Both the position numbers and the translations under genes were made by a program. From Naegleria gruberi (Eukaryota), in assembly GCA_000004985.1 (NCBI GenBank), contig GG739272.1: a DNA stretch of 2,310 bases; one strand, 5' to 3'. Below the pieces are notes generated by a model, which was given only the letters and a program-made list of their open reading frames with translations, had not been told where the DNA came from and did no database searches. Every line of letters begins with the position of its first letter. Position 1 is the first letter of the stretch. Below, piece by piece: positions 1-2,310 of the stretch.

Positions 1-1
1 T

Positions 2-703
2 TACATTTCCAAGAGGAAACAAATTGCCATTCATACTTTTCTAAGTGAAGTATTGGAGAGGGACGATTTGTCAATCAAGTGCAATAGATGTCGTATTGAA
101 ATGGAACATTTACATGAGGTTAATGCATTCACTCTTCATCATGTCATGTATAAAGATGATGACTTTACAAAGACATTTAGGAGTACAACAAAATTCATTC
201 CCGAATTCAAAAAGTTTGGTGCTGATTGGTTCAAGAAGAATGAAAAGTTGGAAGTATTGTGTAGACCTTGTCATGGTTTGGAACATGCAAGGAATGTTGA
301 AGGTGGTTCTAATTGGCAATATTGTCATGAAAAGATGATCACCTTGATGGGAGGAAAATGTCAGGAATGTGGCCTGTCTTTTGAATCCAATTCAGAATTG
401 GGAAAGATCTTTCATGTGCATCACAAGAATAGGGATGGTGTGAAGAAGAGAGCCCAAGCAACAGAAGATATTGATGATGAAGAGAGGGAAGTAGCCCAAC
501 ATGTTAATGAGTACAAGTTAATTCTTGCAATGACTGAAGAGCAACAAGTAGAAAAGTTGAAGGAATTTGAATTGCTATGTGATGGATGCCATTATTTTGA
601 GCACATGGAAAAGCATGCAAGATCGGAAGTTATCGATTTAGGAATGAAGGAGAGAATGATGAACTTGTTGAGTTTTCAAAGAGTATTGTCTATGGAAAAA
701 TAA
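2..703 (+). CDS. Partial (5'-truncated at the window edge or by an unseen intron) CDS for a small Cys/His-rich protein with two tandem HNH / His-Me-finger nuclease-like motifs. Stop is TAA at 701-703.
   Basis: Frame 2 is open from nt 2 with no upstream stop. The track's 'M' at 53 is TTG. The first real ATG is at 101, which would delete the first CxxC. Repeat 1: C-N-R-C ... FTLHHV ... LEVLCRPCHGLEH. Repeat 2: C-Q-E-C ... IFHVHHKNRDG ... VNEY ... LLCDGCHYFEH. Both fit the CxxC / HH / N / CxxCH-x3-H architecture of HNH (pfam01844-type) domains, though the spacers are longer than usual. About 220 codons, no internal stops, codon usage consistent with the neighbouring gene. Confidence 0.6.
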   Translation, partial: YISKRKQIAIHTFLSEVLERDDLSIKCNRCRIEMEHLHEVNAFTLHHVMYKDDDFTKTFRSTTKFIPEFKKFGADWFKKNEKLEVLCRPCHGLEHARNVEGGSNWQYCHEKMITLMGGKCQECGLSFESNSELGKIFHVHHKNRDGVKKRAQATEDIDDEEREVAQHVNEYKLILAMTEEQQVEKLKEFELLCDGCHYFEHMEKHARSEVIDLGMKERMMNLLSFQRVLSMEK

Positions 704-801
704 TAAATTGTGATGATGATTTGGGACAAAGTACTGTCATACCTTGTAAAATTGTGGTAGAGTTTTCCCTCTGGTACTGCCATTTTTTTGTTGGATTTAA
801 A

Positions 802-821
802 AAAATTAAGGATCCGCAACT
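802..821 (+). repeat. Copy 3 of the core repeat, on the opposite strand relative to copies 1 and 2, in the intergenic/3'UTR region: AAAATTAAGGATCCGCAACT.
   Basis: 18 of 20 nt are identical to the AAAATTAAGGATCTGCAATT core of the intron at 1991..2046. The two T->C differences create a BamHI site and the start of an XhoI site. Confidence 0.55.
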
Positions 822-895
822 CGAGTGACTTGTTCACTACTTCAAGTATTTCCAATTACTTCATTTCCAGATATATTAGTGATATTTCCAATCAT

Positions 896-901
896 AATAA
901 A
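896..901 (+). promoter_or_regulatory. Candidate polyadenylation signal AATAAA for the plus-strand gene. An additional AATAAA sits right at the stop codon (703-708).
   Basis: Hexamer about 195 nt downstream of the stop codon, followed 45-100 nt later by a GU-rich block. Confidence 0.35.
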
Positions 902-944
902 TGATATTATTGAAGATGTCTACTCGTAGTTTGCAACATTGTTA

Positions 945-1000
945 TTATTTTGTGTTGGGTGAGGTTGTGTGCATTGAGTTGATGTTTGGTTGCATTTTTT
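945..1000 (+). promoter_or_regulatory. GU-rich downstream element candidate (TTGTTATTATTTTGTGTTGGGTGAGGTTGTGTGCATTGAGTTGATGTTTGGTTG) 3' of the AATAAA. Metazoan-style polyA site architecture.
   Basis: A strongly G+T-biased run on the plus strand, located where a cleavage-stimulating downstream element would be expected. Confidence 0.3.
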
Positions 1001-1207
1001 GTTTCAAGATTGCATCTCATTTTTAACCTGAAATTCAAGCGAAAAATCATGTACCCACTTTAGAACAGCTCATTCTCAATCATTTCTTGAATTAAAGATT
1101 GGAAAATTGAACCACATGTAGATAAACTCGTAAATGCGAGAATTTGAAAAAATAAAGTAAAAATATCAAGAAACAAAGCGAGGAATAGCAAAAGATTACC
1201 AAAAAGT

Positions 1208-1795
1208 TTATTTTTTATTCTTGAAAGGAACCTTAAATTTCTTCACAACAGCAGCAGCAACAGCAGTACCCTTAGTAATGGGTGTTTGGATTTGTTTTGG
1301 AGATTGATCAATTCTAGTGACATATCCATGAGTGAGTTCATTCCAAAATTTGCCAGATTCAGCTGGTGTTTCCTCCTTCTCTTCAAAGGCTTGCCTAATA
1401 GCATTGTAATGCTTTTTAACTCCAACGATTGACCAGTCCAACTTTACACCAATCAAAATTGGGAATTTATCTAACAAATTTCCAAGGTGGAAAAGCTTGG
1501 TCATTTTGGAAACACCTACGGAAGGGGCAAACTTGTGGAAGGCATCTTTCTTTTTCAATTGTCTGTTACTGGCAAGTTCTTTGGAAAGTTGAATGAAAAC
1601 TCGCAAGCTGATTAAATTTTTGCAATATACACTTGAATTCAATGCTTTGGAAATGTCAGTCTTTAATCTGTGGACATCACCATCAAATATTGTTCCAATT
1701 ACTTGTTCACTAGCACTAGTGATTAGATTCTGTTTCAATTTTTGTAAGGTAATCCTATTAGCTTCATCCAACTTTTGAACAGCATATTCTATTAG
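1208..1795 (-). CDS. Terminal coding exon (195 codons plus TAA stop at 1208-1210) of a multi-exon gene. Uncharacterised, likely nuclear/nucleolar protein. Sequence runs LIEYAVQKLDEANRITLQKL...KGTAVAAAVVKKFKVPFKNKK.
   Basis: Long minus-strand ORF (track 1208..1828). Its first 11 track residues (MRICNFIVPSQ, starting with TTG) are intron read-through. A 3' splice site CTCAG| lies at 1796-1797, immediately upstream, in phase with exon 2. Confidence 0.75.
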   Translation of the reverse strand, partial: LIEYAVQKLDEANRITLQKLKQNLITSASEQVIGTIFDGDVHRLKTDISKALNSSVYCKNLISLRVFIQLSKELASNRQLKKKDAFHKFAPSVGVSKMTKLFHLGNLLDKFPILIGVKLDWSIVGVKKHYNAIRQAFEEKEETPAESGKFWNELTHGYVTRIDQSPKQIQTPITKGTAVAAAVVKKFKVPFKNKK

Positions 1796-1843
1796 CTGAG
1801 AAGGAACAATAAAATTACAGATCCTCAATTTATAAATACTTAC
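1796..1843 (-). other. Spliceosomal intron (48 nt) between exon 2 and exon 3. GTAAGTATTTATAAATTGAGGATCTGTAATTTTATTGTTCCTTCTCAG.
   Basis: GTAAGT donor after AAT, and a pyrimidine-rich ...TTCCTTCTCAG acceptor. Removal joins exon 2 to the long downstream ORF in frame. Confidence 0.75.
1811..1843 (-). repeat. Copy 2 of the same repeat: GTAAGTATTTATAAATTGAGGATCTGTAATTTT.
   Basis: Direct alignment with 2014..2046 on the minus strand. Identical GTAAGTATT, AAATT, AGGATCTG and AATTTT blocks. Confidence 0.7.
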
Positions 1844-1990
1844 ATTCTTTTGCTTCTTTCCATTCTTTAAAGAGTTTCTTTTTCTCTTCTTTGATTTTGC
1901 CTTTTCCTCCTCAGAATTACTATAGGAATCATTCTCATCATGTTCATTATCGGATACATGTTCAAACTCTTCTGATAATTTATCTTGATC
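1844..1990 (-). CDS. Internal coding exon, 147 nt / 49 codons, phase 0/0: DQDKLSEEFEHVSDNEHDENDSYSNSEEEKAKSKKRKRNSLKNGKKQKN. Acidic/Ser-rich with a KKRKR basic NLS-like patch.
   Basis: Bounded by AAG|GAT at the 3' splice site (1991-1992) and AAT|GTAAGTAT at the 5' splice site (1843). Its length is a multiple of 3 and joins exon 1 and exon 3 in frame with no stops. The composition continues the acidic theme of exon 1. Confidence 0.7.
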
Positions 1991-2046
1991 CTTATTACAA
2001 TTGAAATGAATAAAAAATTGCAGATCCTTAATTTTGTAATACTTAC
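1991..2046 (-). other. Spliceosomal intron (56 nt) between exon 1 and exon 2 of the minus-strand gene. GTAAGTATTACAAAATTAAGGATCTGCAATTTTTTATTCATTTCAATTGTAATAAG.
   Basis: Canonical GTAAGT donor directly after codon GAT, and an AG acceptor. Removing it restores the frame (phase 0). Stops are present in frame inside it. Confidence 0.7.
2014..2046 (-). repeat. Copy 1 of a short dispersed repeat forming the 5' part of the intron: GTAAGTATTACAAAATTAAGGATCTGCAATTTT.
   Basis: 28 of 33 nt are identical to the 5' part of the other intron (1811..1843). Core AAAATTAAGGATCTGCAATT. Confidence 0.7.
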
Positions 2047-2154
2047 ATCATGATGGCTTTTCTCGGAAGCATCTTGTTGTTGATCATTATCATCTTCCAT
2101 TTGATCTAATATTTTCTCCTCATCATCAGAAGGTTCTGTTTCAATATCTTGTTT
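2047..2154 (-). CDS. Coding exon containing the ATG at 2100-2098 (MEDDNDQQQDASEKSHHD). The reading frame is also open upstream to a putative 3' splice site at 2155-2156 (KQDIETEPSDDEEKILDQ-MEDD...). The exon is therefore either 2047..2100 (ATG start) or 2047..2154 (internal exon).
   Basis: The real ATG at 2100 is followed by an in-frame acidic peptide ending GAT|GTAAGTAT (5' splice site at 2046). Upstream of the ATG the same frame stays open for 18 codons with the same Asp/Glu-rich composition, up to TAATAG| at 2155-2160. Confidence 0.6.
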
Positions 2155-2210
2155 CTATTATTTAAATAATATTCAATTGTATATACTTGTATTCAAATAA
2201 ATAAACAAAC
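2155..2210 (-). other. Putative 56-nt intron (GTTTGTTTATTTATTTGAATACAAGTATATACAATTGAATATTATTTAAATAATAG). Alternatively, 5'UTR if translation starts at ATG 2100.
   Basis: GT...AG boundaries, an AT-rich interior with stops in all frames, and flanking open frames in phase with similar acidic composition. Confidence 0.35.
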
Positions 2211-2310
2211 CTTAATCACTTTCGTAATTACATCATTATCTTCTTCATCATCAATTTGGATTGGATGGAGAGTACGAAATACCTTCAACTGGAATATCCA
2301 ATTGGATTCA
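2211..2310 (-). CDS. Possible further upstream coding exon (partial, runs off the window): ...ESNWIFQLKVFRTLHPIQIDDEEDNDVITKVIK, ending AAG|GTTTGT.
   Basis: There are no stops in this frame across 2211..2310. It ends with AAG followed by a GT-starting AT-rich segment (2155..2210). That segment carries stops in all frames and ends TAATAG. The acidic DDEEDND stretch matches the downstream exons. The 5' splice site GTTTGT is weaker than the GTAAGTAT used by the other two introns, so this is tentative. Confidence 0.35.

What the first reader, a model, noticed from the sequence alone, without database searches (positions are those of the whole stretch)
2..703. Intronless ORF encoding a tandem double HNH/His-Me-finger-like protein next to an intron-rich eukaryotic gene
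The protein carries two consecutive copies of the pattern CxxC - (L/F)HHV or HVHH - N - LLCxxCH-x3-H. That is the zinc-binding plus catalytic-His architecture of HNH nucleases (McrA, colicin and homing-endonuclease type). The spacers between HH and the second Cys pair are unusually long (about 35 and 50 aa), and the inter-repeat and C-terminal regions are acidic/charged. A small standalone tandem-HNH protein is atypical for a eukaryotic nuclear gene. It could be a horizontally acquired or domesticated nuclease, an organelle-targeted HNH protein, or a novel zinc-finger family that only mimics HNH spacing. The ORF runs off the 5' edge of the window, so a targeting peptide or additional domain may be missing.
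Basis: partly seen in the sequence, partly recalled or inferred. Interest (0 to 1): 0.6.

Follow-up and report, generated by a model that had tools for sequence, protein, structure and literature searches.

The report
Tandem double HNH nuclease gene, Naegleria
The ORF is real and encodes two back-to-back HNH-type DNA-cutting domains in the amoeba Naegleria gruberi; it is a divergent relative of phage and giant-virus HNH endonucleases, a modest curiosity and not a new kind of system.

Summary
Window 2-703 (+) is an open frame of 233 codons ending in TAA TAA. It carries two copies of CxxC…HH…CxxCH-x3-H.

The window appears to be an entire 2,310-bp Naegleria gruberi scaffold. The ORF is 97% identical to an N. 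gruberi 'predicted protein' on a 613-kb scaffold.

Pfam HNH scores stay just under threshold. Four other results support two HNH (beta-beta-alpha-metal) units:
- With the helical inserts removed, each unit aligns end to end with the HNH profile.
- Profile-profile comparison links both units to an abundant phage 'long-spacer' HNH subfamily that does pass Pfam HNH (97.6% and 95.1% probability).
- An AlphaFold2 model (pLDDT 81) places HH at the end of strand 1 and CxxCH-x3-H at the strand 2/helix junction in both units.
- Whole-chain fold matches go to giant-virus proteins, several of them named HNH endonuclease.

Every Cys and His ligand is conserved in the intact relatives. I therefore infer an active single-chain nuclease with two catalytic centres; this is not shown.

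The family is tiny and has been found only in Naegleria and a few metagenome contigs. The N. fowleri copy has lost half of unit 1 and the N. lovaniensis copy has lost most of unit 2, which suggests a dispensable, possibly selfish gene. Interest is low to moderate.

The parts
2..703 (+). 5'-truncated coding sequence (233 codons plus TAA) for the tandem HNH protein. A second TAA follows at 704-706. The true start lies beyond the scaffold end.
   Evidence: It is 97% identical to N. gruberi 'predicted protein' P0001. There is no in-frame ATG before codon 34.
5..52 (+). Helix before unit 1 (residues 2-17). It corresponds to the basic helix that precedes the CxxC in phage HNH units.
   Evidence: AF2 model, pLDDT 85-96 over residues 1-20. 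This is an analogy to the 'R..K.K.I.YKGG-CxxC' lead-in of the viral units.
71..298 (+). HNH unit 1 (residues 24-99). C27/C30 lie at nt 80-91, H46H47 at 137-142, C87/C90/H91 at 260-274 and H95 at 284-286. The helical insert is residues 48-82.
311..346 (+). Inter-unit helix (residues 104-115, family motif SNW..LH..VV.LLGG). It is the lead-in helix of unit 2.
326..625 (+). HNH unit 2 (residues 109-208). C120/C123 lie at nt 359-370, H140H141 at 419-424, C193/C196/H197 at 578-592 and H201 at 602-604. The acidic helical insert is residues 142-188 and contains the invariant NEY motif.
611..700 (+). C-terminal helical tail (residues 204-233).
   Evidence: AF2 helices 204-212, 216-223 and 225-232, with lower pLDDT.
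1208..2310 (-). Context, not part of the HNH gene. This is a convergent, spliced N. gruberi gene of unknown function with introns at 1796-1843, 1991-2046 and, by my inference, 2155-2210. It shows that the ORF sits on eukaryotic DNA.

Best explanation
The ORF is a 5'-truncated copy, probably an allelic or haplotype scaffold, of a Naegleria-lineage gene for a single-chain tandem HNH (beta-beta-alpha-metal, His-Me finger) endonuclease.

Each unit consists of:
- a lead-in helix;
- a CxxC knuckle;
- strand 1 ending in HH;
- a helical insert;
- strand 2 ending in the second CxxC;
- a helix carrying H-x3-H.

By analogy with McrA/Cas9-type and colicin-type HNH enzymes (established knowledge), the four Cys hold a structural zinc. 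The second His of HH acts as general base. The first His of HH plus the two helix His bind the catalytic metal. With two complete centres in one chain, the protein would act as a pseudo-dimer able to cut both DNA strands, where single HNH domains must oligomerise to do so.

The units descend from the phage 'long-spacer' HNH homing-endonuclease subfamily. The two-unit fold resembles giant-virus HNH endonucleases. The gene is compositionally host-like but dispensable: it is patchy in distribution, fast-evolving and partly decayed in N. fowleri and N. lovaniensis.

Shown here: the motifs, their conservation, homology to HNH, the predicted fold and the eukaryotic context. Inferred: catalytic activity, the double-strand cutting mode, and the viral or selfish origin.
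For: Homology to HNH:
- Insert-deleted units align to Pfam HNH positions 1-47/47 and 1-45/47 at 20.6 and 21.3 bits.
- hhalign gives unit 2 against the viral set A5 at 97.6% (E 3.3e-12) and unit 1 at 95.1% (E 3.3e-8).
- 20 of 22 A5 members hit Pfam HNH at E <= 0.01. The A5 profile finds the HNH domains of the group II intron maturase 6me0 (E 9e-4) and McrA 6ghc (E 1.2e-3).
- 12 of 19 weak PHROG hits are HNH endonuclease families.

Internal duplication: unit 1 against unit 2 gives 90.6%, E 1.3e-6.

Fold:
- The AF2 model has pLDDT 81.4 and pTM 0.70. Strands 43-47 (FTLHH) and 83-87 (LEVLC) precede helix 88-97. Strands 137-141 (FHVHH) and 189-193 (FELLC) precede helix 194-201.
- In BFVD, 7 hits have E <= 1e-3 and probability 1.00 over 196-235 aligned columns. 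They are Barrevirus, Clandestinovirus and Medusavirus proteins, five of them named HNH endonuclease, plus an unnamed phage protein. Pithovirus and Marseillevirus follow at E 4e-3 to 1e-2.

Conservation: C4, C7, H23, H24, C64, C67 and H68 are invariant in 7 unit-1 sequences. C12, C15, H32, H33, C85, C88, H89 and H93 are invariant in 5 unit-2 sequences. None of the 6 differences from P0001 touches a ligand.

Precedent: two active HNH domains are what cleave the two DNA strands in Cap5 (PMC12141522 abstract).

Context: GC is 36.5% against 34.4% for the spliced neighbour.

Decay: the N. fowleri locus keeps unit 2 and only the C-terminal half of unit 1. The N. lovaniensis locus keeps unit 1 and stops after the CxxCH of unit 2. 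The two loci share an upstream gene.
Against: - No native sequence of the Naegleria family reaches the Pfam HNH gathering score (best 17.8 bits).
- NCBIfam finds nothing.
- The Asn of the H-N-H motif is not at its canonical place. A conserved Glu (unit 1) or Lys (unit 2) sits six residues before the second CxxC.
- I could not read the model coordinates, so neither the metal-site geometry nor the spacing of the two centres was checked.
- The AF2 model rests on only 12 sequences.
- No relative was found in IMG/VR by close search or in cultured phages by tblastn, so a viral origin is not demonstrated at sequence level.
- The apparent decay in N. fowleri and N. lovaniensis could reflect assembly errors or unrecognised introns.
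Confidence: 0.6

Rival explanations
1. A domesticated, catalytically inactive HNH-derived zinc protein. On this reading it binds DNA or RNA, for example as a regulator, and the His residues serve only as structural or metal ligands.
For: The canonical Asn is missing. Long acidic helical inserts could occlude the cleft. Homologues carry extra N-terminal CxxC pairs that look like zinc ribbons, which are typical binding modules. Pfam HNH scores are below threshold.
Against: All four catalytic-site His positions per unit (HH and H-x3-H) are kept in every intact relative. Inactivated HNH domains would not be expected to retain all of them (my expectation, not tested here). The related phage subfamily also lacks the canonical Asn, having D-K-C there, yet passes Pfam HNH.
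Confidence: 0.17
2. The window copy is a non-functional remnant. On this reading it is a decaying pseudogene or a redundant haplotig of a selfish gene, with no current role in N. gruberi.
For: The scaffold is only 2,310 bp and the ORF lacks its start. The N. fowleri and N. lovaniensis copies have each lost half of a unit. Those two copies share only 28% identity over 58 residues, although they lie next to a shared upstream gene that is 59-75% identical.
Against: The frame is open for 233 codons in 33% GC DNA (P about 1e-8). All ligands are intact, and the six substitutions relative to P0001 avoid them. Truncation at a scaffold end is an assembly limit, not a lesion.
Confidence: 0.15
3. A non-HNH zinc-finger family (C2H2- or THAP-like) that only mimics HNH spacing.
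For: phmmer against PDB lists only C2H2 fingers over residues 119-141. Pfam zf-C2H2 gives E 0.46.
Against: Those hits are not significant (E 0.1-9). The C123-to-H138 loop varies by 17 residues among relatives. Spacing of C-x2-C-x14-H-x-H does not fit C2H2. Profile-profile and fold evidence point to HNH. No THAP hit appears at E <= 10.
Confidence: 0.03
4. Bacterial or phage contamination of the assembly.
For: The nearest non-Naegleria sequence relatives are phage-like (P0008, P0012, L006).
Against: The same 2.3-kb scaffold carries a gene with GT..AG introns that matches an annotated N. gruberi protein exactly. A 97% identical copy sits on a 613-kb N. gruberi scaffold. Homologues lie on N. fowleri and N. 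lovaniensis chromosomal contigs. GC matches the host.
Confidence: 0.01

Closest known systems
Phage free-standing 'long-spacer' HNH endonucleases (motif GG-CxxCG … F-HH … K … ELDKC-LLC-NCH-x3-H). Examples are the ORF between primase-helicase and DNA polymerase in IMG/VR contig L006, and the tandem forms P0008 and P0012.
   Same: The unit plan is the same: lead-in helix, CxxC, HH at the end of strand 1, a helical insert of 30 or more residues, then CxxCH-x3-H. There is no canonical Asn. Profile-profile probabilities are 95-98%. P0008 and P0012 are also two units in one chain.
   Different: Sequence identity is only about 20-33%. The Naegleria inserts are longer (39 and 51 residues against a median of 32). 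The CxNCH Asn and the DKC motif are absent. None of 80 viral loci examined was tandem. P0008's two units are 51% identical to each other, so its duplication is probably independent of the Naegleria one, whose units share only 19-24% identity. The host here is a eukaryotic nucleus.
Giant-virus (Nucleocytoviricota) proteins annotated 'HNH endonuclease' or 'Restriction endonuclease HNH', for example Clandestinovirus A0A8F8PKE7, Medusavirus A0A3T1CX78 and Barrevirus A0A3G4ZSP3.
   Same: These are the best whole-chain fold matches: Foldseek E 5.6e-5 to 3.8e-4, probability 1.00, 196-235 aligned columns covering both units. Several of the named viruses (Medusavirus, Clandestinovirus) were isolated on amoebae, by my recollection; hosts were not looked up here.
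   Different: Identity is only 14-18% and TM-score 0.35-0.47. No sequence-level link was detected. The viral proteins are longer (277-434 residues). I could not read their sequences to confirm that they carry two complete HNH motifs.
Pfam PF01844 HNH. Characterised members with solved structures include McrA, the Cas9 HNH domain, Gme HNH, T4 endonuclease VII and group II intron maturase En domains.
   Different: Native scores fall below the gathering threshold. The insert between the strands is 3-4 times longer. Asn is replaced. There are two units per chain, whereas the characterised enzymes bring two HNH domains together by oligomerisation or pair one with a second nuclease domain (established knowledge; Cap5).
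His-Cys box homing endonucleases of Naegleria rDNA group I introns (I-NjaI, I-NanI, I-NgrI; the I-PpoI family).
   Same: Same genus, and the same His-Me finger superfamily (established knowledge).
   Different: There is no Pfam hit to zf-His_Me_endon or related models at E <= 10. The gene here is a free-standing nuclear chromosomal gene, not an intron ORF on the rDNA plasmid. The ligand pattern is that of Cys4 HNH.

Membership tests
HNH endonuclease (Pfam PF01844 / His-Me finger superfamily) | Score at or above the curated Pfam gathering threshold (21.4 bits). | tested here: not met
   The native window protein scores 14.4 bits. The best family member scores 17.8 bits. Artificial insert-deleted units score 20.6 and 21.3 bits over the full profile, still just under threshold.
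HNH endonuclease (Pfam PF01844 / His-Me finger superfamily) | Homology to bona fide HNH domains by profile-profile comparison. | tested here: met
   Unit 2 scores 97.6% and unit 1 scores 95.1% against the viral set A5. 20 of 22 A5 members hit Pfam HNH at E <= 0.01, and the A5 profile finds McrA and the maturase HNH in PDB.
HNH endonuclease (Pfam PF01844 / His-Me finger superfamily) | Beta-beta-alpha-metal core, with the general-base His at the end of strand 1 and the metal-binding His/Asn on the helix. | tested here: met
   AF2 secondary structure gives E43-47 (…HH), E83-87 and H88-97 (CH…H) for unit 1, and E137-141 (…HH), E189-193 and H194-201 for unit 2, at pLDDT 81. This is at the level of secondary structure and fold matches only. 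The 3-D geometry of the sites was not inspected.
HNH endonuclease (Pfam PF01844 / His-Me finger superfamily) | Central Asn of the H-N-H motif, about 5 residues before the second CxxC. | tested here: not met
   Six residues before the second CxxC, unit 1 has a conserved Glu and unit 2 a Lys; the canonical Asn position, five residues before it, is variable. The related phage subfamily likewise has D-K-C there.
HNH endonuclease (Pfam PF01844 / His-Me finger superfamily) | Metal-dependent nucleic-acid cleavage. | not testable with these tools
   This needs biochemistry.
Homing (mobile) endonuclease | Presence/absence polymorphism at a defined target site, and a cleavage site in empty alleles. | not tested
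   Only indirect signs are available: patchy distribution, fast divergence and partial decay in N. fowleri and N. lovaniensis at a locus that shares an upstream gene. No empty site was available to examine.
C2H2 / THAP-type zinc finger | A significant profile match and fixed Cys-His spacing. | tested here: not met
   zf-C2H2 gives E 0.46 and PDB C2H2 hits give E 0.1-9. There is no THAP hit. The loop length varies by 17 residues.

The most novel reading that the evidence does not exclude
Naegleria and related heteroloboseans may carry a nuclear, free-standing, single-chain double-active-site HNH endonuclease, acquired from a giant virus or phage. It would make double-strand breaks as a monomer and would still behave as a selfish, homing-like gene that is gained, diversified and lost in eukaryotic chromosomes. 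That would make it a rare nuclear, non-intron, non-intein homing endonuclease. It would also be a compact natural scaffold with two independently mutable HNH sites, convertible between nickase and double-strand cutter.
Probability: 0.2. Interest if true: 0.55.

Novelty: new variant of a known kind. Interest (0 to 1): 0.33.

Why it matters
If the protein is active, it would be a small eukaryote-encoded nuclease with two HNH centres in one chain. I know of no biochemically characterised enzyme with that arrangement, and a full-text search for 'tandem HNH' found no paper.

It would show how HNH enzymes can achieve double-strand cutting without oligomerising. It would also add a case of phage or giant-virus nuclease genes entering and eroding in an amoeba genome.

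Two practical annotation points follow:
- The N. gruberi gene model for the main copy starts at an internal Met and cuts off the first zinc knuckle.
- The N. fowleri and N. lovaniensis models each describe only half of the architecture.

None of this bears on a long-standing open question. HNH genes are common selfish cargo, so the finding is of modest interest.

Tried and rejected
- Single-sequence AF2 gave an unusable model (pLDDT 38).
- phmmer and family-profile searches of PDB gave only insignificant C2H2, kinesin or BRCA1 noise.
- NCBIfam gave nothing.
- The look-up of encoding contigs could not locate P0001, so the 5' end on the 613-kb scaffold was out of reach.
- The afdb50 fold library was unavailable.
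- The search for homologous proteins with the family alignment returned only 3 proteins.
- The search for related loci with A1 and A2 failed for lack of conserved stretches.
- Close searches of IMG/VR with the window protein and with P0004 found nothing. The same was true of tblastn against cultured phages and a pattern scan of JGI metagenomes.
- There is no synteny between the window's neighbour gene and the loci of P0002, P0004, N. fowleri or N. lovaniensis.
- Literature searches found no paper on this gene or on 'tandem HNH' proteins.
- Considered and rejected: bacterial contamination, a C2H2/THAP finger, membership of the His-Cys box family, and special significance of the gene being intronless.

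Full report
**1. What is in the window**

Window 2-703 (+) translates without interruption into 233 residues and ends in TAA. A second TAA follows immediately.

The protein has 9 Cys and 15 His. Eight of the Cys form four CxxC pairs:
- Unit 1: C27xxC30 … H46H47 … C87xxC90-H91-x3-H95.
- Unit 2: C120xxC123 … H140H141 … C193xxC196-H197-x3-H201.

The unit pattern occurred at least once in only 2 of 200,000 shuffles of the same residues, and never twice. A 233-codon open frame in DNA of this composition has a probability of about 1e-8.

**2. Where it comes from**

The protein is 97% identical to a 200-residue 'predicted protein' of Naegleria gruberi that lies on a 613-kb scaffold (P0001).

The minus-strand neighbour, once spliced, contains the annotated 'predicted protein, partial [Naegleria gruberi]' P0020 exactly, 280 of 280 residues. 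The longest contig recorded for P0020 is 2,310 bp, which is the length of the window. The window therefore appears to be a complete small N. gruberi scaffold. It is most simply read as a second haplotype or a very recent duplicate of the 613-kb locus. This also explains why the ORF runs off the edge.

Several results place the ORF on eukaryotic DNA:
- Two GT..AG introns (1796-1843 and 1991-2046) are confirmed by the P0020 match. A third (2155-2210) is my inference.
- The ORF has 36.5% GC and the neighbour's coding sequence 34.4%.
- Homologues sit on N. fowleri and N. lovaniensis chromosomal contigs.

Contamination is excluded.

The P0001 gene model starts at the Met that corresponds to window residue 34, and so omits C27xxC30. 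Every intact relative keeps that pair, so the model is probably truncated at its N-terminus.

**3. Is it HNH?**

Direct library searches are weak:
- Pfam HNH scores 14.4 bits against a threshold of 21.4, matching only the first half of unit 2.
- NCBIfam finds nothing.
- PHROGs gives only weak hits, but 12 of 19 are HNH endonuclease families.

The weakness comes from the long inserts between the two strands. I made artificial constructs with the inserts removed. Each unit then aligns to the whole HNH profile, positions 1-47/47 and 1-45/47, at 20.6 and 21.3 bits.

An exhaustive phmmer search of 1.84 billion representative proteins found 12 hits:
- Eight are Naegleria or eukaryote-like proteins.
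- Two are tandem double-HNH proteins from phage-like contigs (P0008, P0012).
- One is a canonical short-spacer HNH (P0011).
- One is P0001 itself.

P0012 passes the Pfam HNH threshold at 21.8 bits.

An earlier scan with the unit-2 alignment (A3) had already found one member, L006, an ORF sitting between the primase-helicase and DNA polymerase genes of a T7-like contig. In a 22-unit alignment of this subfamily (A5):
- 20 of 22 members hit Pfam HNH at E <= 0.01.
- The profile finds the HNH domains of a group II intron maturase (6me0, E 9e-4) and of McrA (6ghc, E 1.2e-3).

Profile-profile comparison links both Naegleria units to A5. Unit 2 scores 97.6% (E 3.3e-12) and unit 1 scores 95.1% (E 3.3e-8). 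The two units are also homologous to each other at 90.6%, E 1.3e-6.

In this viral subfamily the gap from HH to CxxCH is already 30 residues or more, with a median of 32. The subfamily also lacks the canonical Asn. The long spacers in the window are therefore an exaggeration of a known subfamily trait, not something new.

**4. Structure**

With the 12-sequence family alignment, AlphaFold2 gave a model with pLDDT 81.4 and pTM 0.70. Without an alignment the model was unusable.

| Element | Unit 1 | Unit 2 |
|---|---|---|
| Strand 1 | 43-47 (FTLHH) | 137-141 (FHVHH) |
| Strand 2 | 83-87 (LEVLC) | 189-193 (FELLC) |
| Helix | 88-97 (RPCHGLEHAR) | 194-201 (DGCHYFEH) |

This is the beta-beta-alpha-metal topology. 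HH lies at the end of strand 1, and the inserts form helices between the strands.

Matches to solved structures are weak but one-sided:
- The Foldseek PDB list is dominated by HNH nucleases, with no E <= 1e-3.

Against predicted viral structures there are seven significant whole-chain matches: E 5.6e-5 to 3.8e-4, probability 1.00, 196-235 aligned columns. They are Barrevirus, Clandestinovirus and Medusavirus proteins plus one phage protein, and five of the seven are named HNH endonuclease. Pithovirus, Solivirus and Marseillevirus follow at weaker E-values.

I could not open the model coordinates, so the geometry of the metal sites and the relative position of the two centres remain unchecked.

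**5. Mechanism (inferred)**

In Cys4-type HNH domains such as McrA and Cas9, the two CxxC pairs hold a structural zinc. In colicin-type HNH domains, the first His of HH together with the H-x3-H pair on the helix bind the catalytic metal, and the second His of HH activates water. This is established knowledge of the family.

All of these positions are invariant in the intact relatives of both units. None of the six substitutions that separate the window copy from P0001 touches them.

I therefore expect both units to be active, giving a monomer with two nuclease centres that can cut both strands. Other HNH enzymes need two HNH domains brought together for this, as in Cap5 (PMC12141522 abstract).

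Homologues with a complete N-terminus carry extra CxxC pairs upstream that look like zinc ribbons, as do many of the phage relatives. These regions are probably DNA-binding. The equivalent region of the window protein lies beyond the scaffold end.

**6. Evolutionary behaviour**

The family is very small: eight clusters at 50% identity, from Naegleria and a few eukaryote-like metagenome contigs.
- The N. fowleri locus has an intact unit 2 but only the C-terminal half of unit 1.
- The N. lovaniensis locus has an intact unit 1. Its unit 2 stops right after CxxCH and continues as a frame-shifted remnant, HIRH.
- These two loci share an upstream gene at 59-75% identity, yet the HNH genes align over only 58 residues at 28%.

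This looks like relaxed constraint on a dispensable gene, as expected of selfish nuclease genes. Assembly errors cannot be excluded.

None of 80 viral loci carried tandem units. P0008's two units are 51% identical to each other, whereas the Naegleria units share only 19-24%. The tandem state has therefore probably arisen more than once.

**7. Verdict**

The Zn-finger and contamination rivals fail.

This is a divergent, duplicated member of the HNH superfamily in a eukaryotic nuclear genome. Its nearest sequence relatives are phage HNH endonucleases and its nearest fold relatives are giant-virus HNH endonucleases. UniProt already labels the N. fowleri homologue 'HNH domain-containing protein'. 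No paper on the gene was found.

I rate it a new variant of a known kind, with low to moderate interest.

Noticed in passing
window 1796-1843, 1991-2046 (minus strand) and 802-819 (plus strand): Two introns of the neighbour gene share their first ~35 nt at 86% identity (GTAAGTATT…AAATTRAGGATCTGYAATTTT). The core AAAATTAAGGATCCGCAA recurs on the plus strand about 100 nt downstream of the HNH stop codon, preceded by GTTGGA. This could be a shared intron element or an introner-like sequence. It was not found in L004 or L005.
   Followed up: partly
whole window 1-2310: The window appears to be a complete 2,310-bp N. gruberi scaffold, since the longest contig recorded for P0020 is 2,310 bp. Its HNH copy differs at 6 of 200 residues from the copy on the 613-kb scaffold, so it is probably a divergent haplotype or a very recent duplicate.
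   Followed up: partly
window 80-100 versus protein P0001: The N. gruberi gene model P0001 starts at the Met equivalent to window codon 34. It omits the conserved first CxxC of unit 1, so the model is probably truncated at its N-terminus.
   Followed up: yes
window 2155-2310 (minus strand): An extra upstream exon (ESNWIFQLKVFRTLHPIQIDDEEDNDVITKVIK) and a GTTTGT…AATAG intron at 2155-2210 extend the neighbour gene beyond the annotated partial protein P0020. The neighbour has a long acidic and Ser-rich region and no Pfam domain.
   Followed up: partly
L087 5845-6489 (N. fowleri VFQX01000004.1) and L088 5752-7076 (N. lovaniensis PYSW02000073.1): Probably orthologous HNH genes in sister species have lost different halves. 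N. fowleri lacks the CxxC…HH part of unit 1. N. lovaniensis has a stop after the CxxCH of unit 2, followed by a frame-shifted HIRH remnant. The annotated models (163 and 323 residues) each describe only part of the architecture.
   Followed up: partly
L001 6620-7309, L002 2007-2696, L003 4100-4789: The tandem double-HNH protein P0008 sits directly downstream of an RtcB RNA ligase gene. The surrounding array is compact and mostly same-strand, with peptide deformylase, DnaJ and a DEAD helicase, which looks like a large phage or a reduced bacterium. It has the same position in three metagenome contigs.
   Followed up: no
P0002 residues 1-70, P0004 50-120, P0007 120-215, and many IMG/VR units: Upstream of the first HNH unit, both eukaryotic and phage relatives carry one or two extra CxxC…CxxC zinc-ribbon-like segments. 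These match no Pfam family. They may form a conserved DNA-binding module of this HNH subfamily.
   Followed up: no
The search for homologous proteins: The word-indexed search with the family alignment returned only 3 proteins. It missed P0002-P0005 and P0007, although those sequences were in the query alignment. Its negative results should therefore be read with caution.
   Followed up: no
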